This document shows, piece by piece, positions 15,817-22,950 of a stretch of DNA of 64,000 nt. The notes below the pieces were generated by a model. The model was not told the origin of the DNA. It made no database searches and saw nothing but the letters and a program-made list of their open reading frames with translations. The position numbers and the translations under genes are program-made. This DNA is from Tulanevirus 60ahydrpp. Lineage: Duplodnaviria > Heunggongvirae > Uroviricota > Caudoviricetes > Straboviridae. Position 1 is the stretch's first letter, and the number at the start of each line of letters is the position of its first letter. Location: positions 19,795 through 83,794 of the IMG/VR virus record IMGVR_UViG_2974724359_000001. One strand, given 5' to 3'.

Positions 15817-16272
15817 ATGAAAAAAATTGTTTTGGTTTTGGCTCTTGCTTTTGCATCTTCTTATGCGATCGCAGATTCAACCAATTTGATAATTGGTGGT
15901 TTTTCAAAACATTACGAAAATGATGAAATGAATGAAAAACATCCGGCGATAGGGGTCGAAATTGACAACTTTTCAATAGTATATACGTCGAAAAACTCGA
16001 TTAATAAACCTTCGGTTCAGTTGGCTTATTCTGACACATTTTACACTTATGGAATTTTTGATATTGGTTATCGCGTTGGTTTTATGACCGGTTATCGATA
16101 TGGAACAAAATATGCCAATAACCGATGGTATAATGGTGTTGATTTGGGTGCCGGGATAGCCCCGCTCGCCGCCATTGATATTTCGGTAGATACCCCTATT
16201 CCGAGCGTCAAATTTGTTACAAGCGTAACACCAGTTGTTACGATGTTCGGATTAAAGATTGAACTTTGGTAA
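15817..16272 (+). CDS. secreted protein, possible small outer-membrane beta-barrel
   Basis: 151 aa, signal peptide MKKIVLVLALAFASSYA, alternating hydrophobic pattern, C-terminal aromatic (…GLKIELW). Confidence 0.5.
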   Translation: MKKIVLVLALAFASSYAIADSTNLIIGGFSKHYENDEMNEKHPAIGVEIDNFSIVYTSKNSINKPSVQLAYSDTFYTYGIFDIGYRVGFMTGYRYGTKYANNRWYNGVDLGAGIAPLAAIDISVDTPIPSVKFVTSVTPVVTMFGLKIELW

Positions 16273-16287
16273 ATTTGAGAACGCAAA

Positions 16288-16533
16288 ATGAAAACTATTT
16301 CACCGACTGGTAAAGAAAAAACGTTCAAATCGTGGAAAAGCCTGAAAGAGTGGCTGTACGCTAATTTTGATTCGTGGGATGCTGATATATTAGATATTCC
16401 ATTTAACTCGACTGTACATTGGGGTCTGTGCCCATTTGATCAAGATATCTACAATGGAAAAGAAACGTTTGTTTGGAATTTCTGCAAAACCCTTTTAGAA
16501 AAAGAGCTCGAGAGTCGAGCTGAGGAGATTTGA
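16288..16533 (+). CDS. hypothetical protein
   Basis: 81 aa ORF. Confidence 0.45.
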   Translation: MKTISPTGKEKTFKSWKSLKEWLYANFDSWDADILDIPFNSTVHWGLCPFDQDIYNGKETFVWNFCKTLLEKELESRAEEI

Positions 16534-16534
16534 A

Positions 16535-16744
16535 TTGGAAACCGTCGTTGTAAAACTGCCCGCTCATCTAAAAGAATGGTTCATTTCTTATATGTGCAAT
16601 TCGGGTGAACAGCATCTCATGGAAGCATGGCATGATGAAGGCATCGAAGGCGATGGCGTCGATTTCAGATATCCATATTATTCTCGAAAGCGTGGCGAAG
16701 AAGTTGACGAGACCGCTGATATCGTAGTTACTGAGTATAAGTGA
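16535..16744 (+). CDS. hypothetical protein
   Basis: 69 aa ORF. Confidence 0.4.
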   Translation: METVVVKLPAHLKEWFISYMCNSGEQHLMEAWHDEGIEGDGVDFRYPYYSRKRGEEVDETADIVVTEYK

Positions 16745-16805
16745 TTTATTGTGAAACGTTTTTAAGTTATCGCTGAAATCGAGCGATCCGATATTCCGGT
16801 ATACG

Positions 16806-17030
16806 TTGGCAGGAAAATGGAATAGGTTAGTCATGAAAAAAGAAAACCACGACATCGATCGATATTCGGAACGTCTTCGTGACATTGAAAACATTTGTTG
16901 GGGCTGTGGAAAACCCTGGACAATCAGGGATTGCTCATGGCAGAAAGTGAAAGGATTATTGCATAGACAGCCTGGTTGTCCTGGGTGTGGTTCTAGGTCA
17001 ATAATTCACATACCGGGCACCCATAAATAG
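16806..17030 (+). CDS. zinc-ribbon protein
   Basis: 74 aa with CWGCG...CPGCG. Confidence 0.45.
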   Translation: MAGKWNRLVMKKENHDIDRYSERLRDIENICWGCGKPWTIRDCSWQKVKGLLHRQPGCPGCGSRSIIHIPGTHK

Positions 17031-17175
17031 ATATACCAAATAACAAAAGGTCGAGCGCAGCGCGGTAAGGAAGCGAAGCGGTTACATCCTTAATACTGAA
17101 CCGATTAAGTTACGGCGGATGGACTGGGCTATCGGTAAACGGGGAAGCATAGACCCGAGCACCTGGCGTTATTAT

Positions 17176-17260
17176 GCAAGTATGGTGGAATTGGTATACA
17201 CTGGAGGCTTAAAACCTCCCGCCTTCGGGATTGTGGGTTCGAGTCCCACTACTTGCACCA
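17176..17260 (+). tRNA. tRNA-Leu(TAA)
   Basis: acceptor gcaagta/tacttgc + A + CCA; anticodon arm ggagg-cTTAAaa-cctcc; long variable arm; T-loop GGTTCGAGTCC. Confidence 0.8.
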
Positions 17261-17271
17261 AATTCAAATTT

Positions 17272-17312
17272 CTAAAGCATATTGTTTACACGCTTTGGAA
17301 ATAAGATATTAT
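17272..17312 (+). promoter_or_regulatory. tRNA-cluster promoter copy 1
   Basis: ctaaagcatattGTTTACA-16-TATTAT; near-identical copies at 17642 and 20788. Confidence 0.55.
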
Positions 17313-17451
17313 TAACTTATCGAATCAAAACACGCATTCAGTCTTGAATGGGATAAATGGTGAAAAGCCATGGTTTTCCTGGAGCAAGCCTTAAGTGGAC
17401 AGAACTCTCATCCTAGTGACGCAGGAAGTGTTTAGATTCGAAAAGAATTCT

Positions 17452-17545
17452 GGAAGATTGGCCCGAGTTGGTTTAAGGCACCGGTCTTGAAAACCGGCAG
17501 TCGTAGGAATACGGCTCATCCGTTCGAATCGGATATCTTCCTCCA
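17452..17545 (+). tRNA. tRNA-Ser(TGA)
   Basis: acceptor ggaagat/atcttcc + CCA; ccggt-cTTGAaa-accgg; long variable arm; T-loop CGTTCGAATCG. Confidence 0.75.
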
Positions 17546-17551
17546 AATTGA

Positions 17552-17634
17552 GGTGCTGTGAGCCGAGCGGCTTAAGGCGGTCCTAATGCAGGACATACGA
17601 AAGCGTATCGTAGGTTCGAATCCTACCAGCACCC
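17552..17634 (+). ncRNA. type II tRNA-like gene with non-canonical anticodon loop (taatgca); anticodon unassignable
   Basis: perfect acceptor ggtgctg/cagcacc, D-arm, long variable hairpin catacgaaagcgtatcg, T-arm taggttcgaatccta, but 4 bp anticodon stem and loop lacking U33. Confidence 0.45.
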
Positions 17635-17641
17635 ATTAATT

Positions 17642-17682
17642 CTGAAGCATATTGTTCAGAGTTGCTGGAAATGAGATATTAT
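17642..17682 (+). promoter_or_regulatory. tRNA-cluster promoter copy 2
   Basis: ctgaagcatattGTTCAGA-16-TATTAT. Confidence 0.5.
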
Positions 17683-17713
17683 TATCTCATCGATTAAAAT
17701 AAGTTGATTTTGG

Positions 17714-17796
17714 GGTGATGTAGCATAACGGTCATGCGGCCGGCTGTTACCCGGCGAGGAAACTCTACGTTGGTTCGACTCCAACCATCACCGCCA
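17714..17796 (+). tRNA. tRNA-Asn(GTT) with unusually long variable region
   Basis: acceptor ggtgatg/catcacc + G + CCA; gccgg-cTGTTac-ccggc; 13 nt between anticodon stem and T-stem. Confidence 0.6.
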
Positions 17797-17809
17797 AAAT
17801 CAATTTCAT

Positions 17810-17893
17810 GGAGTATTTGGGTAACTGGTAGCCCAGCAGATTGTAAACCTGCCGCCTCTGGCATTCCTGGTTCGAATCCAGGATACTCCACCA
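17810..17893 (+). tRNA. tRNA-Tyr(GTA)
   Basis: acceptor ggagtat/atactcc + A + CCA; loop ttGTAaa; long variable arm; GGTTCGAATCC. Confidence 0.65.
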
Positions 17894-17914
17894 TTTCATT
17901 GCGAGAAATATATT

Positions 17915-18439
17915 ATGAAGCCTGACTTAATGACCGCATATTCCAATCAGCGTGGAAGAGCAAAGAATCGTGGAATAGATTGGGAATTTACATTCGACAC
18001 TTGGATATCTTGGTGGGAATCCACTGGTAAACTGAGTCAGCGCGGCATACATGTCGGTGGTTATATTATGTGTCGAGTAAATGATACCGGTCCTTATTCA
18101 CCATCAAATGTGTATTGCGGAACGTATTCCGATAACATGAAAGATATGTTATCATTGGGAACCCGCAAGGGATGGCAAATGAGCGATGACCATAGAGCCA
18201 GAATAGCCAAATTGGCCGGAAAAGCCGGTGGAAAACGTTTTGCTGAACTTTACTCATTAAGTCAAGATACAATCAAAACTCGTTTATCTTTAATATCAGA
18301 TATCGATTTGACGAAATTTGGTTGGGTTGTCAAGGTTGCTAAGGTTTTAAACATATCGCATACACAAGCGCGACGATTTGTTGACGAATGGTATGATGGT
18401 GAAGTTTACAAGAGAAATACGCCGGTAGCTAAGCGGTAA
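17915..18439 (+). CDS. putative homing-endonuclease-like DNA-binding protein (N-terminal YSNQRGRAKNRGIDWEFTFDTW motif, C-terminal helix-turn-helix)
   Basis: 174 aa ORF inside tRNA cluster; last 21 nt overlap tRNA-Lys; C-terminal AKVLNISHTQARRFV resembles NUMOD/IENR-type HTH. Confidence 0.45.
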   Translation: MKPDLMTAYSNQRGRAKNRGIDWEFTFDTWISWWESTGKLSQRGIHVGGYIMCRVNDTGPYSPSNVYCGTYSDNMKDMLSLGTRKGWQMSDDHRARIAKLAGKAGGKRFAELYSLSQDTIKTRLSLISDIDLTKFGWVVKVAKVLNISHTQARRFVDEWYDGEVYKRNTPVAKR

Positions 18440-18494
18440 AGCACCTGACTTTTAATCAGGATACTCGATGGTTCGAATCCATCCCGGCGTACCA
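18419..18494 (+). tRNA. tRNA-Lys(TTT)
   Basis: acceptor acgccgg/ccggcgt + A + CCA; cctga-cTTTTaa-tcagg; GGTTCGAATCC. Confidence 0.75.
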
Positions 18495-18500
18495 AACAAT

Positions 18501-18587
18501 GGAGAGGTAAGATGTAAAGATCATCAGCCCCTCGTAATGGGCCCGCCTTACAAGTCTTGTTGGAATCGAAGCCAACCCTCTCCACCA
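18501..18587 (+). ncRNA. tRNA-like RNA with CCA end and irregular anticodon and T arms
   Basis: acceptor ggagagg/cctctcc + A + CCA, D-arm gatg/catc, but anticodon arm gccc-ctcgtaat-gggc (8 nt loop) and 8 nt T-loop aatcgaag. Confidence 0.4.
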
Positions 18588-18684
18588 GATTTCGCAGTAA
18601 AGAAGTTGTAATGAACTGTCATCTTACGACCACACCGAGTAACGTTCGACGTATGATTACGAAGATTCCAGGGTGCTACAATTT

Positions 18685-18756
18685 GAATGACGAGTGTACG
18701 GCCAAGCACGCCACCTTTTAGGCGCCGGAGGACAGGTTCGAGTCCTGTATCATTCA
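18685..18756 (+). ncRNA. tRNA-like gene with 4 bp anticodon stem and 8 nt loop (ACCTTTTA)
   Basis: acceptor gaatgac/atcattc, D-arm gtgt/gcac, perfect T-arm acagg-ttcgagt-cctgt; anticodon region cgcc-acctttta-ggcg. Confidence 0.4.
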
Positions 18757-18785
18757 CTGCAAATTAGTTTCAAGTAATCATTGGT

Positions 18786-18860
18786 GTGACCTTAGTAGTA
18801 ATGGTAGCTATCCTGGATGTGACCCAGGGAGTACGGGTTCGAACCCCGTAGGTCACCCCA
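18786..18860 (+). tRNA. tRNA-His(GTG)
   Basis: acceptor gtgacct/aggtcac + C + CCA; cctgg-atGTGac-ccagg; GGGTTCGAACCCC. Confidence 0.75.
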
Positions 18861-18872
18861 ATGATTATTTTC

Positions 18873-18948
18873 GCGATATTAGCTCAGTTGGTAGAGCTTC
18901 TGATTTCCAATCAGAATGTCATCGGTTCGAGACCGATATATCGCTCCA
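18873..18948 (+). tRNA. tRNA-Gly(TCC)
   Basis: acceptor gcgatat/atatcgc + T + CCA; tctga-ttTCCaa-tcaga; D-arm agctcagttggtagagc. Confidence 0.8.
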
Positions 18949-19193
18949 AACACAAGTCACAGGGCTCTAGATTCCTAGTCAGTTTCGCACCCCTGGTTGA
19001 TGCACTGTCCATTATTGCGCCGTGACTGGAGCCCGCGAGTTGGACAACCGTATTGTCTCCGGCACTTAGATGACCGGCTTTAACAAGAGAAATCGGGAGA
19101 CGTCCCGTAAAATCCTCGGACAGAACTTTAGTAGTCACTCCCGTCATTTTGCGCGGTGAAACGAGGAAGTATAGACGGGGTAACGAATTCAAT

Positions 19194-19271
19194 CCGTGTG
19201 TAGGCTAGTCAGGTTAGGTCGTCTGGTTTGGGGCCAGAAAGTCGAAGGTTCGAATCCTTCCACACGGACCA
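19194..19271 (+). tRNA. tRNA-Pro(TGG)
   Basis: acceptor ccgtgtg/cacacgg + A + CCA; tctgg-ttTGGgg-ccaga; GGTTCGAATCC. Confidence 0.7.
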
Positions 19272-19547
19272 AATTACGTAAGCGGATACTTGGTTGCAAA
19301 CAAGTCCGTAAAGTCGTCGAATGTGGTAACATCCTCTCCTGGCACTATCCCAGTGATGCGGTTATCCAGAACGGCGCAAACTGAAGAATTGAGTCACATC
19401 CGTAAGGCCCTGACTCCAATTCTTCAAACACTCTTGTTTATGTGGCGGTCGAGACATCCCCACGTTAAAAACTGAAATCTCGATGTCCCGAGCTGCAGCG
19501 TTAGGGAAGAGTGTTTGAAGAATTGAACTAATGAGAAGAAATATATT

Positions 19548-20099
19548 ATGCAGATGACATTAACAAGACAGCATCACGCAGGCGAAATGCAATCATTCAT
19601 CGACGGTTCAATGACTGAAATCGATGCGATTTATGGATATGCGGATTTTTTATTCGAACGTAAGAAGAAAAAGCGAGCATCGCCATATATCAGTAATACA
19701 ATTCCAGCAATTCAAGCTTTTGCAGAATCTTTTGAGCAATCGATTGCTAGTTACTGCAAATACGCTTTTGCTAATAATATACGCTGCAAATGTGGTTACT
19801 TTTATATTATTTCAAATCCATCTTTTCCCGAAATGTATAAACTAGGCTTTTCGTTGGATTGCGTTGACAGACTTAAACAATATCAAACATATTGTCCGGC
19901 ACGCGATTTTAAGTTGGAATTCTATCTTGCTGTATCTAACGCTCGTCAAGTTGAACGACTTGTTATGCATATTCTAGGAGAACGAATGCAAAATGAGTGG
20001 TTTAAATCCACTGATATACGCGGCGACTGGAAAATGTTAACAAAAGAAATTGCACTTAATACCCGTGAGAACAATCGTTTTTATTATAAGCCAATTTAG
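19548..20099 (+). CDS. T5orf172 / GIY-YIG-like domain protein
   Basis: 183 aa; GYFYIISNPSFPEMYKLGFSLDCVDRLKQY matches the T5orf172 signature (GyvYvlsNp...KIG.T); embedded in tRNA cluster; 3' end overlaps tRNA-Thr by 10 nt. Confidence 0.55.
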   Translation: MQMTLTRQHHAGEMQSFIDGSMTEIDAIYGYADFLFERKKKKRASPYISNTIPAIQAFAESFEQSIASYCKYAFANNIRCKCGYFYIISNPSFPEMYKLGFSLDCVDRLKQYQTYCPARDFKLEFYLAVSNARQVERLVMHILGERMQNEWFKSTDIRGDWKMLTKEIALNTRENNRFYYKPI

Positions 20100-20164
20100 C
20101 ACAGCGGTAGTGCAACGTACCTGTAATACGTAGGTCGTCAGTTCGAATCTGACAATTGGCTCCA
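20090..20164 (+). tRNA. tRNA-Thr(TGT) with C33
   Basis: acceptor gccaatt/aattggc + T + CCA; acgta-ccTGTaa-tacgt; GTTCGAATC. Confidence 0.6.
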
Positions 20165-20187
20165 AATTTTTAAATGAGGAAAATATT

Positions 20188-20373
20188 ATGTTATTTGCTT
20201 ATCAAGTTATTGCTGTTATCTTCTTTATTTGCTCTTTCTTGGGCGATTACAAGCGATATTCAGACTCCCCTTCCGAAATTGCGGGTAATTTGATTGGCTC
20301 TGTTTTTGCCGGTGCTTTGTGGCCATTGACGGTACTTATCCATATTTTTTGTATCTCAAAACTCAATCGCTAA
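20188..20373 (+). CDS. small membrane protein
   Basis: 61 aa, two hydrophobic helices, RBS gaggaaaatattATG. Confidence 0.5.
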   Translation: MLFAYQVIAVIFFICSFLGDYKRYSDSPSEIAGNLIGSVFAGALWPLTVLIHIFCISKLNR

Positions 20374-20530
20374 ATAAATACAAAGGAACGGACTTCTTCG
20401 GACCCGTTCGTTAAGTAAAAAAGGGAAGACCATCTAGATATGACGAGGACGTCGGTCTGTATCATATCTAGCTGGCCCTTGGCCTCCGACGAGGTTTTGT
20501 CTGGAAGTGGTGCGCCCAGATCGTTTCAAT

Positions 20531-20606
20531 ATGACATTGGTGTTAGCGGTAGCATGCCGGTCTCCAAAACCGTGCGGCCAGGGTTCGAATCCTTGATGTC
20601 ATGCCA
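20531..20606 (+). tRNA. tRNA-Trp(CCA)
   Basis: acceptor atgacat/atgtcat (A1-U72 as in E. coli tRNA-Trp) + G + CCA; loop ctCCAaa; GGTTCGAATCC. Confidence 0.7.
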
Positions 20607-20608
20607 AT

Positions 20609-20684
20609 AGTGGATTAGCTCAGTAGGTAGAGCACTCGACCGATAATCGAGAGTGCATTGGTTCGATCCCAATATCCACTACCA
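20609..20684 (+). tRNA. tRNA-Ile(GAT) with C33
   Basis: acceptor agtggat/atccact + A + CCA; ctcga-ccGATaa-tcgag; D-arm agctcagtaggtagagc. Confidence 0.7.
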
Positions 20685-20691
20685 AATTCTA

Positions 20692-20779
20692 GGAGAAGTG
20701 GATGAGCGGCTGAAATCGCTTCCCTGCTAAGGAAGTAAACCGAAAGGTTTCGAGAGTTCGAATCTCTCCTTCTCCGCCA
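20692..20779 (+). tRNA. tRNA-Ser(GCT)
   Basis: acceptor ggagaag/cttctcc + G + CCA; cttcc-ctGCTaa-ggaag; long variable arm; GTTCGAATC. Confidence 0.8.
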
Positions 20780-20787
20780 AATGCATC

Positions 20788-20829
20788 CTGAAGCATATTG
20801 TTTAAAACTTCCCAACAAGTGATATTATT
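20788..20829 (+). promoter_or_regulatory. tRNA-cluster promoter copy 3
   Basis: ctgaagcatattGTTTAAA-17-TATTAT. Confidence 0.5.
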
Positions 20830-20856
20830 AACTCATACCAAAACAGAGTTTAGAGC

Positions 20857-20929
20857 GGAGCCATAGTTTATTTGGTTAAAATAGTCCCCTGTCACGGGTC
20901 AGCACCGAGTTCGATCCTCGGTGGCTCCG
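20857..20929 (+). tRNA. tRNA-Asp(GTC), CCA not encoded
   Basis: acceptor ggagcca/tggctcc + G; gtccc-ctGTCac-gggtc (one mismatch); GAGTTCGATCCTC. Confidence 0.65.
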
Positions 20930-20942
20930 CTCTAAATTTTGA

Positions 20943-21016
20943 TGTTACGTAACTCAGTCGGTTAGAGTCTGGGCCATAACGCCCCGGAGACGTAGGTTCG
21001 AGTCCTACCGTAACAA
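20943..21016 (+). ncRNA. tRNA-like gene, anticodon arm irregular (loop cataacg, possibly CAT-derived)
   Basis: acceptor tgttacg/cgtaaca, D-arm actc/gagt, T-arm gtagg-ttcgagt-cctac; anticodon stem tgggc/gcccc with C-C mismatch. Confidence 0.4.
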
Positions 21017-21025
21017 CCTAATTGA

Positions 21026-21102
21026 TGCGATGTAGAGGAGAGGTCGTCCTCGTCGGGCTCATATCCCGAAAATCGGTGGTTCGAATCCACCCATCGCTTC
21101 CA
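21026..21102 (+). tRNA. tRNA-Met(CAT), initiator-like (unpaired 1-72, three G-C pairs in anticodon stem)
   Basis: acceptor tgcgatg/catcgct (T1-T72 mismatch) + T + CCA; tcggg-ctCATat-cccga; GGTTCGAATCC. Confidence 0.65.
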
Positions 21103-21304
21103 ATTTCAATCGCTTGTTGAACGTGGGAAAATAGCAAAATATGGGAAAGGGTCGCGAACCGGAACCTTAAAGTAGCTTTCTAAGTACTTGTTGTCTGGCA
21201 GTTCACACATACGTATATTTGTGATGGGTTCGAGACCCTAACAAGCGCCCGAATAACAACGCCAGTGACTAATCGAATGATCGTTACCGGCTTTTTCATC
21301 TGAC

Positions 21305-21379
21305 GGCCCTGTAGCTAGACGGTTCAAGCAGGCGGCTCATAACCGCTCGTAGTAGGTTCGATTCCTACCAGGGTCACCA
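21305..21379 (+). tRNA. tRNA-Met/Ile2(CAT), elongator type
   Basis: acceptor ggccctg/cagggtc + A + CCA; ggcgg-ctCATaa-ccgct; GGTTCGATTCC. Confidence 0.7.
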
Positions 21380-21383
21380 ATTT

Positions 21384-21461
21384 GGGTTCTTCGTTTAATG
21401 GGAAGACCGTAGGTTGCTTTGCATCCTGATGATGCTATTTCGATACTAGCAGAACCCACCA
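21384..21461 (+). ncRNA. degenerate tRNA-like element with CCA end
   Basis: acceptor gggttct/agaaccc + A + CCA and TTCGATA T-loop, but no convincing D-arm; anticodon arm aggtt-gcTTTgc-atcct. Confidence 0.3.
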
Positions 21462-21477
21462 ATTTGAGGAAAATACT

Positions 21478-21927
21478 ATGGATATCGGATCCGGCGCGTC
21501 TTGGCCATCATGTGCATTGAGTAATTTTGCTCCACATGAATTCGTTATCGATGGGATTAGATGTTCCTCAATGGAAGGATTCCTTCAGTCTCTCAAATTC
21601 AAATCGCCTGAAATGCAAGAATACGTTTGCACTCTGGTTGGTAAAGCCGCCAAATTTAAAGGCAAAAAGAAAAACTGGTGGAGAGATCAAACTCTGTACT
21701 GGAAAGGTAAACCGATGCGGCGGCAAAGCGATGCTTATTCTGATTTAATCTGCCGAGCATATGACGAAATTGCGAAGAATTCCGGATTTCAACGGGCAAT
21801 CCTAGCCACCCGGAATTCTTCGTTAACTCATTCAATGGGTAAAAGCAAAAAGAATGAAACAGTGTTAACTGAACAAGAATTTTGTTCAAATCTGTATCGT
21901 ATCCGAGATAAACTTCAAGCCGCTTAA
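21478..21927 (+). CDS. NADAR (YbiA-like) domain protein
   Basis: 149 aa; SNFAPHEF..DGIRCSSMEGFLQSLKF matches the NADAR/YbiA signature (SNF...DG...S.EH.fQA.KF). Confidence 0.6.
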   Translation: MDIGSGASWPSCALSNFAPHEFVIDGIRCSSMEGFLQSLKFKSPEMQEYVCTLVGKAAKFKGKKKNWWRDQTLYWKGKPMRRQSDAYSDLICRAYDEIAKNSGFQRAILATRNSSLTHSMGKSKKNETVLTEQEFCSNLYRIRDKLQAA

Positions 21928-21940
21928 TTGCGGCTTTTTA
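21917..21940 (+). terminator. rho-independent terminator
   Basis: aagccgcttaattgcggcttttta. Confidence 0.7.
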
Positions 21941-21947
21941 GTCAAAT

Positions 21948-22024
21948 GGTCTCTTAGCTCAGCTGGATAGAGCAGCGGCCTTCTAAGCCGCGGGTCATTG
22001 GTTCGAATCCAATAGGGACTGCCA
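21948..22024 (+). tRNA. tRNA-Arg(TCT)
   Basis: acceptor ggtctct/agggact (two G-U) + G + CCA; gcggc-ctTCTaa-gccgc; D-arm agctcagctggatagagc. Confidence 0.75.
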
Positions 22025-22041
22025 AAATTAAAGGTGATGTC

Positions 22042-22251
22042 ATGGCAATGATGCATGAAAAATCTCATGCTCGAGAGGGAAGGGGCAGCGGAAATGCCCG
22101 AAGCGAGAATTGGTATAATTCTCCATTGTGGAAAAACACCGGCCCAAATAAAAAACCCGGAGTAGTAAAAGAACAAATTCCCGAAGATCAATTAACTGAT
22201 GAACAGAAGCTTCGCAGGCGTCAACAGGAATTGCTCAGATCAATTTATTAA
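22042..22251 (+). CDS. hypothetical basic protein
   Basis: 69 aa ORF. Confidence 0.4.
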   Translation: MAMMHEKSHAREGRGSGNARSENWYNSPLWKNTGPNKKPGVVKEQIPEDQLTDEQKLRRRQQELLRSIY

Positions 22252-22261
22252 GGTAATTAAT

Positions 22262-22456
22262 ATGTCTCATTTACAACGCATGAAAGATGAGCTGAGTGAA
22301 TTGGGTGAACGATTGAATAAGCTCAACGATTTCATTAACATGTCTGATATTTACAAGACTCTTGATCCTGATGAGAAGTTTCTCATGGAACAACAGTATA
22401 TCGCGATGGACAGGTATTACGATATGCTAAAACGGCGAATTAAGCGTCAATCATAA
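22262..22456 (+). CDS. hypothetical coiled-coil protein
   Basis: 64 aa from ATG 22262 (in frame with longer ORF-track call 22199). Confidence 0.45.
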   Translation: MSHLQRMKDELSELGERLNKLNDFINMSDIYKTLDPDEKFLMEQQYIAMDRYYDMLKRRIKRQS

Positions 22457-22458
22457 TT

Positions 22459-22482
22459 AGGGCTCCTTCGGGAGCCCTTTTC
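22459..22482 (+). terminator. rho-independent terminator
   Basis: agggctccttcgggagcccttttcg. Confidence 0.8.
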
Positions 22483-22506
22483 GTATTCTCTCGATGAGGT
22501 TTCAAT

Positions 22507-22950
22507 ATGAACAAATATTTCGATTATAACTCTTTCTTCGTAAATGCAATGCGTGTTGTTTCGACCAATTACCCGCCGGGATGTGAGATGGAGGTATTGA
22601 AAGATCGATCAGATTTTTTAAAATCAAATAGAACAATATCTATAAACGTTGGCCGGCAAACTGGTAAAACAACTTCATTTATCAGGCTTGGTAACGAATT
22701 AAGCAATCATGCCAAAGTCGCAATGATAGTCATGAACACCGAAAATAAGAAAATGACCAAAAGTATGGGAGCTAAATTCGATATTCTGACTTTTGGTGAT
22801 ATTAAGAGACGATTGCAGATTCTAGATTTAGAAAAAATCCAATTTATCATAATTGACGAGAGCGAATTTATTCTCTTTGATGAGAACAGGGTGCATGATT
22901 TTTACAAATGGGCAAAATTAGTAAATGCCGAATTTATCCTAAAAACTTGA
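22507..22950 (+). CDS. P-loop NTPase, function unknown
   Basis: 147 aa; Walker A GRQTGKTT and hhhhDE Walker B (IIIDESE). Confidence 0.5.
   Translation: MNKYFDYNSFFVNAMRVVSTNYPPGCEMEVLKDRSDFLKSNRTISINVGRQTGKTTSFIRLGNELSNHAKVAMIVMNTENKKMTKSMGAKFDILTFGDIKRRLQILDLEKIQFIIIDESEFILFDENRVHDFYKWAKLVNAEFILKT

What the first reader, a model, noticed from the sequence alone, without database searches (positions are those of the whole stretch)
21478..21927. NADAR-domain gene embedded in the tRNA cluster
The 149-aa protein carries the YbiA/NADAR signature. NADAR enzymes were shown to remove guanine ADP-ribosylation installed on DNA by DarT toxins. A phage copy is a plausible counter-defense against DarTG-type systems. 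It has its own terminator and sits among mobile-looking genes.
Basis: partly seen in the sequence, partly recalled or inferred. Interest (0 to 1): 0.55.

Follow-up and report, generated by a model that had tools for sequence, protein, structure and literature searches.

The report
Phage AdfN-type NADAR gene, already known

Summary
The window is Aeromonas phage 60AhydR15PP (Tulanevirus, Straboviridae). The ORF at 21478-21927 (+, 149 aa) is real and is annotated only as a hypothetical protein (KNT91_gp047).

- **Family:** it matches Pfam PF08010 (phage protein gp30.3) at E = 2.3e-56 and is 43% identical to T4 gp30.3.
- **Active site:** the catalytic Glu and Lys (E33, K40; E36 and K43 in T4) and the His that defines phage NADARs (H118) are present. 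All three are nearly invariant across the family.

T4 gp30.3 was renamed AdfN in 2025. It was shown by genetics and in vitro to remove guanine-linked ADP-ribose from DNA and to neutralise DarTG1.

It should be narrowed to DarTG1 (guanine), not DarTG2 (thymidine). The proposed co-expression rescue test would mislead, because T4 AdfN fails that test in uninfected cells.

The gene does sit inside the tRNA cluster. Among 80 relatives, 22 also have tRNAs on both sides within 3 kb. The "terminator" is a short hairpin that is conserved in close relatives. Interest is low.

The parts
21478..21927 (+). adfN / gene 30.3 orthologue: 149-aa phage-type NADAR (core domain only, no N-terminal extension)
21574..21576 (+). 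Codon for E33, the catalytic glutamate (T4 E36; E. coli C7 NADAR E88; P. nicotianae E43)
   Evidence: Aligned with T4 E36. Invariant in A1 and A2. Glu in 148 of 158 aligned representative domains. Its role is described in PMC11825919 and PMC11543638.
21595..21597 (+). Codon for K40, the phosphate-coordinating lysine (T4 K43; C7 K95; P. nicotianae K50)
   Evidence: Lies 7 residues after the Glu, as in all compared NADARs. Lys in 149 of 158 aligned representative domains.
21829..21831 (+). Codon for H118, the histidine in the last beta-strand that defines the phage (gp30.3) NADAR subfamily. It is Glu in the YbiA family and Asp in DarG1/BC4488.
   Evidence: Invariant in A1 and A2. His in 139 of 158 aligned representative domains, 14 of the rest being gaps. 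Lies in strand 117-118 of the model. The subfamily definition is given in PMC11125620 and PMC11543638.
21466..21469 (+). Shine-Dalgarno-like GAGG, 8 nt upstream of the ATG
   Evidence: Read directly from the sequence.
21917..21939 (+). Hairpin AAGCCGC-TTAATT-GCGGCTT plus T run. The stop codon lies in the loop. It is a terminator-like or 3'-stabilising element.
   Evidence: Free energy -13 kcal/mol, z = -3.1. Retained in L006 and L008, and in altered form in L007. Not called by the consensus scan.
21384..21461 (+). tRNA-like element with an enlarged anticodon loop and an encoded CCA, directly upstream of the gene
   Evidence: Rfam RF00005 at 31.5 bits, gathering score 29. Missed by ARAGORN. 100% conserved in 50AhydR13PP.
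21305..21379 (+). tRNA-Met(cat), upstream flank
21948..22024 (+). tRNA-Arg(tct), starting 20 nt downstream of the stop codon

Best explanation
The gene encodes a phage-type NADAR enzyme, the orthologue of T4 gp30.3/AdfN. During infection it hydrolyses the N-glycosidic bond between ADP-ribose and guanine in phage DNA. This erases the marks that a host DarT1-type ADP-ribosyltransferase writes to block phage replication. It therefore acts as an orphan antitoxin that neutralises DarTG1-type defence.

Shown here: family membership, the NADAR fold, the intact E33/K40/H118 active site, the full-length C-terminal helix, and the absence of an adjacent toxin gene.

Taken from work on the T4 orthologue: guanine-ADPr hydrolase activity and the anti-DarTG1 role.

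Inferred from position only: the gene is on the same strand as the tRNAs and has no recognisable promoter of its own. It is probably transcribed with the tRNA cluster and excised from that precursor. The hairpin over the stop codon would then act as a weak terminator or 3' stabiliser.
For: - **Family:** PF08010 at E = 2.3e-56; 43% identity over the full length to T4 gp30.3.
- **Family size:** 4600 clusters at 90% identity, all listed ones carrying PF08010; 1147 representatives at 50% identity.
- **Active site:** E33, K40 and H118 align with T4 E36, K43 and the subfamily His, and are nearly invariant.
- **C-terminal helix:** residues 132-148 are present. This helix is truncated in the DarTG1-sensitive phage RB69.
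- **Bridge to NADAR by sequence:** some family members also match Pfam NADAR PF08719 below its cut-off, for example P0187 at E = 4.9e-6.
- **Published function of the orthologue:** PMC11825919, PMC11125620, PMC11833690, PMC12945103 and the HIDEN-SEQ preprint.
- **No toxin partner:** none of the seven cluster and flanking ORFs scanned matches an ADP-ribosyltransferase.
Against: - No experiment exists for this protein or for any Aeromonas phage orthologue.
- It is only 43% identical to the tested T4 enzyme.
- I found no evidence either way that Aeromonas hosts carry DarT1. A literature search gave nothing specific, and I had no DarT1 sequence with which to search genomes.
- T4 AdfN needs an unidentified T-even factor for full activity. 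The T4 neighbours of 30.3 are absent from this window, so whether this orthologue depends on such a factor is unknown.
- The PADLOC library gives no DarG match.
Confidence: 0.8

Rival explanations
1. The enzyme's main substrate is RNA rather than DNA. It would remove guanine-ADPr from tRNA or mRNA written by RNA-targeting host ADP-ribosyltransferases. Its conserved placement in tRNA clusters would then reflect a shared role in protecting translation.
For: - T4 NADAR removes guanosine-ADPr from RNA in vitro (PMC11833690).
- ScARP and Scabin modify G in tRNA, and NADARs reverse this (table in PMC12945103).
- The gene has tRNAs on both sides within 3 kb in 22 of 80 relatives, although the order of the tRNAs differs between them.
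Against: - In T4, RB43 and Vibrio phage D490 the orthologue is nowhere near tRNAs.
- The T4 phenotype is fully explained by de-modification of DNA.
- T4 NADAR is less active on RNA than E. coli C7 NADAR.
- tRNA regions of T4-like phages collect accessory and homing-endonuclease genes anyway, so linkage may be neutral and inherited within a few lineages.
Confidence: 0.08
2. It degrades soluble ADP-ribose derivatives, such as immune signals or toxic by-products, rather than ADP-ribose attached to macromolecules. This was proposed for most phage NADARs by comparative genomics.
For: Iyer et al. [quoted passage not shown]
Against: That prediction predates the experiments. The T4 orthologue acts on ADP-ribosylated DNA both in vitro and in vivo. 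The same catalytic residues are conserved here.
Confidence: 0.05
3. It is a YbiA-like N-glycosidase of riboflavin-pathway intermediates, that is, a metabolic housekeeping enzyme.
For: YbiA is the best PDB match by sequence profile and by fold.
Against: - The Glu that defines the YbiA family is replaced by His118.
- The match to YbiA is only 15-17% identical.
- PF08719 is not matched.
- The family is overwhelmingly found in phages.
Confidence: 0.02
4. It reverses ADP-ribosylation written by the phage's own Alt/ModA/ModB-type transferases. It would be a regulator of the phage's own modifications, not a counter-defence.
For: In T4 the gene lies about 3 kb from alt. Iyer et al. note co-expression with phage ADP-ribosyltransferases.
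Against: - Alt and Mod modify protein arginines, whereas NADARs are base-specific N-glycosidases.
- None of the T4 genes beside 30.3 (alt.1 through cd; alt itself was not queried) has a homologue in this window, so the T4 neighbourhood that places 30.3 near alt is not kept here.
Confidence: 0.03

Closest known systems
T4 gp30.3 = AdfN (anti-DarT factor NADAR; Pfam PF08010; Johannesman et al. 2025, PMC11825919)
   Same: - Same Pfam family, same length, core NADAR domain only.
- 43% identical over the whole protein.
- Catalytic Glu and Lys, the subfamily His and the C-terminal helix are all conserved.
- Orphan gene with no toxin partner.
   Different: - Genomic position: inside the tRNA cluster rather than beside DNA ligase, 30.2 and alt.
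- The loop at residues 55-71 is much more basic, net +6 against +2 in T4. The family median is +4, so T4 is the outlier.
- Host is Aeromonas, not E. coli.
- Untested experimentally.
DarG1 antitoxin (BC4488-family NADAR of DarTG1; structure 8bat; Schuller et al. 2023, PMC11543638)
   Different: - DarG1 has Asp where this protein has His118.
- DarG1 carries an N-terminal extension.
- DarG1 is encoded next to DarT1.
- There is no significant sequence match.
E. coli YbiA (PF08719, structure 2b3w)
   Different: - YbiA has Glu at the position of H118.
- Only 15-17% identical.
- YbiA is a chromosomal gene in a LexA-controlled operon and is linked to riboflavin metabolism.
AdfN-Bas32 and AdfN-Bas60 (NADARs of T5-like and Vequintavirinae phages)
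   Same: Phage-encoded orphan NADARs with anti-DarTG1 activity.
   Different: They belong to other NADAR clades, acquired independently, and act without other phage factors. This protein belongs to the gp30.3 clade.
AdfM (T4 Tk.4 macrodomain) and DarG2-like phage macrodomains
   Same: The same strategy: a phage-encoded antitoxin-like hydrolase that erases DNA ADP-ribosylation.
   Different: Unrelated fold (macrodomain) and a different target, thymidine-ADPr written by DarT2.

Membership tests
Phage NADAR / gp30.3 / AdfN family (Pfam PF08010) | Scores above the curated cut-off of the PF08010 model over its full length | tested here: met
   189.9 bits against a cut-off of 36, E = 2.3e-56, profile positions 2-138 of 138.
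Phage NADAR / gp30.3 / AdfN family (Pfam PF08010) | Histidine in the last beta-strand, in place of the Glu of YbiA or the Asp of DarG1 | tested here: met
   H118 is invariant in A1 and A2 and is His in 139 of 158 aligned representative domains. It lies in strand 117-118 of the model. The definition comes from PMC11125620 and PMC11543638.
Phage NADAR / gp30.3 / AdfN family (Pfam PF08010) | Core NADAR domain only, with an intact C-terminal helix that T4 AdfN needs for full activity | tested here: met
   149 aa. Helix 132-148 in the model. The alignment with T4 runs to the last residue of T4 gp30.3.
Phage NADAR / gp30.3 / AdfN family (Pfam PF08010) | Hydrolyses guanine-linked ADP-ribose on DNA | not testable with these tools
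   Known only for the T4 orthologue.
Phage NADAR / gp30.3 / AdfN family (Pfam PF08010) | Confers resistance to DarTG1 during infection | not testable with these tools
   Shown for T4 and T2 by deletion, complementation and a transposon screen. No data exist for Aeromonas phages.
NADAR superfamily | NADAR alpha+beta fold | tested here: met
NADAR superfamily | Catalytic Glu and Lys seven residues apart in the N-terminal E-x6-K motif | tested here: met
   E33 and K40 align with T4 E36/K43 and with YbiA E48/K55. The spacing equals E88/K95 of C7 NADAR and E43/K50 of P. nicotianae NADAR.
NADAR superfamily | Matches the Pfam NADAR model PF08719 | tested here: not met
   No PF08719 hit at E <= 1. Related family members reach E = 4.9e-6 and 1.6e-4, below the cut-off. 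The gp30.3 clade is modelled separately by Pfam, so this does not argue against superfamily membership.
DarG1 antitoxin (BC4488 NADAR family) | Asp at the last-strand catalytic position, an N-terminal extension, and a gene adjacent to darT1 | tested here: not met
   His in place of Asp. No extension (149 aa). The immediate neighbours are tRNAs, and the seven cluster and flanking ORFs scanned are small ORFs without ART domains. No DarG model is matched in PADLOC.
YbiA family | Conserved Glu in the last strand | tested here: not met
   H118 occupies that position.

The most novel reading that the evidence does not exclude
The long-standing linkage of this gp30.3 clade to tRNA clusters may be functional. 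The linkage is seen in 22 of 80 relatives and across several different tRNA orders.

Under this reading the NADAR mRNA is matured out of the tRNA precursor. Processing of the upstream tRNA-like element would set its 5' end. RNase P cleavage at tRNA-Arg would set its 3' end. The stop-codon hairpin would act as a 3' stabiliser.

The enzyme would then also protect phage tRNAs or other RNAs from guanine ADP-ribosylation. The tRNA cluster plus NADAR would form a module that protects translation.
Probability: 0.06. Interest if true: 0.55.

Novelty: already known. Interest (0 to 1): 0.14.

Why it matters
It matters little beyond annotation. KNT91_gp047 and its many 'hypothetical protein' orthologues in Aeromonas, Klebsiella and other T4-like phages can be named as AdfN-type NADAR anti-DarTG1 factors.

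For phage therapy in aquaculture, it predicts that these Aeromonas phages resist DarTG1-type defence.

Two small points may be worth a follow-up:
- This clade keeps a strongly basic loop that T4 AdfN lacks. It could be checked whether the clade works without the unknown T-even helper factor.
- This clade stays linked to tRNA clusters.

Tried and rejected
- **Other libraries.** NCBIfam gave no hit. PADLOC gave only a weak match to PDC-M42C (E = 0.0044) and no DarG model. The single sequence against PDB gave only chance-level hits.
- **Own promoter.** Sigma-70-like sites are no more frequent than in shuffled sequence (2 against 3.4 expected, and 16 against 17.0). Regular expressions for the T4 late promoter (TATAAATA), the MotA box and a strict early promoter found nothing in 16500-22600. 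So there is no evidence that the gene is an independent transcription unit.
- **Terminator.** The consensus scan did not call the hairpin after the gene. Only folding shows it.
- **T4 neighbourhood.** A tblastn search with T4 alt.1, 30, 30.1, 30.2, 30.4-30.9, rIII, 31 and cd found none of them in the window. The candidate helper gene 30.2 is therefore not linked here.
- **Domain fusions as functional clues.** The partners are LRR_5, Lgt, GDSL lipase and an FtsW-like protein, and one protein has tandem repeats of the domain. These are uninformative for ADP-ribose biology and may include gene-call fusions.
- **Basic loop.** I tried to equate a loop lysine with the DNA-recognition Lys of DarG1 (K115 in C7). 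The profile alignment to YbiA is too uncertain to fix the register, and T4 may keep an Arg at that position. I report only the charge difference.
- **Foreign origin.** Composition does not suggest it. The gene's GC is about 0.44, against 0.34-0.50 for its neighbours.
- **Literature.** Searches for DarTG in Aeromonas, and for gp30.3 together with tRNA in Aeromonas phages, returned nothing specific.

Full report
**Where the window comes from.** The region 20800-22600 is 100% identical to Aeromonas phage 60AhydR15PP (NC_055747.1, Tulanevirus, Straboviridae, host A. hydrophila). It is 92-98% identical to a set of Aeromonas T4-like phages, including 50AhydR13PP, phiAS4, avDM4, AS-gz and Aes012. Window position equals record position minus 19794. 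The ORF in question is KNT91_gp047, annotated 'hypothetical protein'.

**Check of the observation.**
- The ORF runs from 21478 to 21927 on the + strand and encodes 149 aa, exactly as stated. It has a GAGG ribosome-binding site 8 nt upstream of the ATG.
- ARAGORN finds 18 tRNA genes between 17176 and 22024, all on the + strand. Rfam adds two weaker tRNA-like matches at 17552-17634 and 21384-21458.
- The gene lies between tRNA-Met (21305-21379) plus the tRNA-like element, and tRNA-Arg (21948-22024), which starts 20 nt downstream of the stop codon. 'Embedded in the tRNA cluster' is therefore literally true.

**What the protein is.**
- It matches Pfam PF08010 (Phage_30_3, 'Bacteriophage protein GP30.3') at E = 2.3e-56 over the whole model. 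It also matches phrog_652.
- It does not match the Pfam NADAR model PF08719 at E <= 1, any NCBIfam model, or any PDB chain as a single sequence.
- It is 43% identical, end to end, to T4 gp30.3 (T4 locus).
- The family is very large. There are 4600 clusters at 90% identity, and all listed ones carry PF08010. There are 1147 representatives at 50% identity and 1510 phage records with a tblastn match.
- One orthologue, from Aeromonas phage 31, is 89% identical and already carries the name gp30.3 in NCBI.

**The link to NADAR.**
- Profiles built from the family find E. coli YbiA (2b3w) as their best PDB hit, at E = 0.13 and E = 0.012. The hits align the N-terminal motif LSNF..h.F..DG....S.EG.LQ..KF.
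- Some family members also touch PF08719 below its cut-off, at E = 4.9e-6 and 1.6e-4.
- An AlphaFold2 model built on 29 homologues has mean pLDDT 87.9 and pTM 0.85.
- Foldseek against the PDB ranks YbiA, Geobacter lovleyi NADAR (8bat) and Phytophthora NADAR with ADP-ribose (8bau) as its top three.
- The fold is therefore NADAR.

**Active site.**
- E33 and K40 align with T4 E36 and K43, the two residues whose mutation impairs AdfN. They also align with YbiA E48 and K55.
- The 7-residue spacing equals that of E88/K95 in E. coli C7 NADAR and E43/K50 in the Phytophthora enzyme.
[quoted passage not shown] Here it is H118, which lies in the short strand 117-118 of the model.
- Across the aligned domains of 150 representatives at 50% identity, these positions are Glu in 148, Lys in 149 and His in 139 of 158 aligned domains. 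Most of the rest are gaps from fragments.
- The C-terminal helix, whose loss weakens the RB69 allele, is present at 132-148.

**What is known about the family.**
- Johannesman et al. (Nat Commun 2025, PMC11825919) mapped DarTG1 resistance of T-even phages to gene 30.3 and renamed it adfN. It is necessary and sufficient for resistance. Purified AdfN removes ADP-ribose from DarT1-modified DNA. E36A and K43A mutants are impaired.
- A 2024 study showed that T4 NADAR hydrolyses guanine-ADPr but not thymidine-ADPr in vitro (PMC11125620).
- Later work added guanosine-ADPr on RNA as a substrate and excluded cytidine-ADPr.
- A transposon screen independently found that 30.3/adfN becomes essential only on DarTG1 hosts.

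**Two refinements to the interpretation.**
- The counter-defence is specific to DarTG1 (guanine). It does not act on DarTG2.
- T4 AdfN does not rescue DarT1 toxicity in uninfected E. coli and seems to need an unidentified T-even factor.

**Gene context.**
- *No toxin partner.* None of the seven cluster and flanking ORFs scanned has an ADP-ribosyltransferase domain, so the gene is an orphan, as in T4.
- *T4 neighbours are absent.* None of the T4 genes next to 30.3 (alt.1, 30, 30.1, 30.2, 30.4-30.9, rIII, 31, cd) has a homologue in this 64-kb window.
- *Linkage to tRNAs is shared by part of the family.* Among 80 IMG/VR loci encoding relatives that are 56-99% identical:
  - 29 have a tRNA within 3 kb and 22 have tRNAs on both sides;
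  - 13 show the same tRNA-Met(cat) / NADAR / tRNA-Arg(tct) order;
  - others show Arg/NADAR/Lys, Trp/NADAR/Gly or Cys/NADAR/SeC-like arrangements.
- *Other phages.* Klebsiella phage F48, at 77% identity, has the Met...Arg arrangement. RB43, Vibrio phage D490 and T4 have no tRNAs nearby.
- *Most economical reading.* The linkage is inherited in one or a few T4-like lineages, within a region that tolerates accessory genes. A functional link cannot be excluded. I give it as the novel case, with low probability.

**'Mobile-looking genes' and 'own terminator'.**
- Inside the cluster there is a T5orf172/MUG113 (GIY-YIG-like) ORF at 19548-20099 with low GC (0.36). There is also an ORF at 17915-18439 with weak HNH-endonuclease PHROG hits.
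- In the sibling phage 50AhydR13PP, a 250-aa ORF annotated 'endonuclease' is inserted between tRNA-Met and the tRNA-like element. This places it just upstream of a 100%-identical NADAR gene. Its Pfam hits, a zinc finger and endonuclease I, are below the cut-offs.
- The neighbourhood is therefore a site of endonuclease gene traffic. The NADAR gene itself has ordinary composition.
- After the gene there is a 7-bp GC-rich hairpin (21917-21936) with the TAA stop codon in its loop, followed by a T run. Its free energy is -13 kcal/mol, z = -3.1.
- The hairpin is kept in L006 and L008 and is altered but still present in L007. The consensus terminator scan did not call it.
- No promoter signal stands out.
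- I infer that the gene is co-transcribed with the tRNAs. The hairpin would be at best a leaky terminator or a 3' stabiliser after RNase P cuts at tRNA-Arg. This is inference from position only.

**One difference from T4.** The loop at residues 55-71 reads GKAAKFKGKKKNWWRDQ, with net charge +6. In T4 it reads GLAAQQAGRSYARAQDR, with net charge +2. The family median is +4, so T4 is the atypical member. I could not fix the alignment register to the DNA-recognition lysine described for DarG1. I therefore offer this only as something to test: whether this clade acts without a helper factor.

**Verdict.**
- The gene is a straightforward member of an experimentally characterised family, so its novelty class is 'already known'.
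- Not established for this phage: enzymatic activity, dependence on a helper factor, and whether its Aeromonas hosts carry DarT1. I could not test the last point.
- Interest is low, about 0.14.

Noticed in passing
window 21384-21461 (+): A tRNA-like element (Rfam tRNA 31.5 bits, gathering score 29) with an enlarged anticodon loop and an encoded CCA. ARAGORN missed it. It ends 16 nt before the NADAR start codon and is 100% conserved in phage 50AhydR13PP. It could be a degenerate tRNA or a small stable RNA or processing element.
   Followed up: partly
window 17552-17634 (+): A second tRNA match found only by Rfam (35.9 bits) and not reported by ARAGORN, between tRNA-Ser and tRNA-Asn.
   Followed up: no
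L086 891-1643 (Aeromonas phage 50AhydR13PP), equivalent to window about 21380: The sibling phage carries a 250-aa ORF annotated 'endonuclease' (zinc finger plus endonuclease-I-like; Pfam hits below cut-off). It is inserted between tRNA-Met and the tRNA-like element, directly upstream of an identical NADAR gene. The flanking tRNA-Met is diverged there, as expected for a homing-type insertion.
   Followed up: partly
window 19548-20099 (+) and 17915-18439 (+): Two protein ORFs inside the tRNA cluster. One has a T5orf172/MUG113 (GIY-YIG-like) domain (E = 7e-8, GC 0.36). The other has only weak HNH-endonuclease PHROG hits. They are probably free-standing homing endonuclease relatives.
   Followed up: partly
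L006-L085 (IMG/VR relatives): The gp30.3-type NADAR gene has tRNAs on both sides within 3 kb in 22 of 80 relatives, and a tRNA within 3 kb in 29 of 80. The tRNA order differs between them: Met|NADAR|Arg in 13, and also Arg|NADAR|Lys/Tyr, Trp|NADAR|Gly and Cys|NADAR|SeC-like. Every relative at 70.5% identity or above is in a tRNA cluster, as are most at 66-70%; L076 (70.4%) has a tRNA only on one side, 2.3 kb away.
   Followed up: yes
window 21640-21690 (protein residues 55-71): A strongly basic loop, GKAAKFKGKKKNWWRDQ (net +6), with low model confidence. T4 AdfN has a much less basic loop (net +2), and the family median is +4. It is possibly a nucleic-acid-binding element, and it may bear on the helper-factor dependence of T4 AdfN.
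   Followed up: partly
proteins P0127, P0165, P0172, P0195, P0235 (50%-identity representatives): PF08010 domains occur fused to LRR_5, Lgt, GDSL lipase and an FtsW-like region, and repeated in tandem within one 480-aa protein (three matched stretches). It is unclear whether these are real architectures or merged gene calls.
   Followed up: no
window 17176-21102: The tRNA cluster holds duplicated specificities: two tRNA-Lys(ttt), two tRNA-Leu(taa), two tRNA-Met(cat) and two tRNA-Ser isoacceptors.
   Followed up: no
window 15817-16272 (+) and 22199-22456 (+): A PagP-like 'moron' (phrog_3600, lipid A acylation and antimicrobial-peptide resistance) lies just upstream of the tRNA cluster. A crAss001_48-related small protein (PF21825, E = 8.6e-20) lies just downstream of tRNA-Arg.
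   Followed up: no
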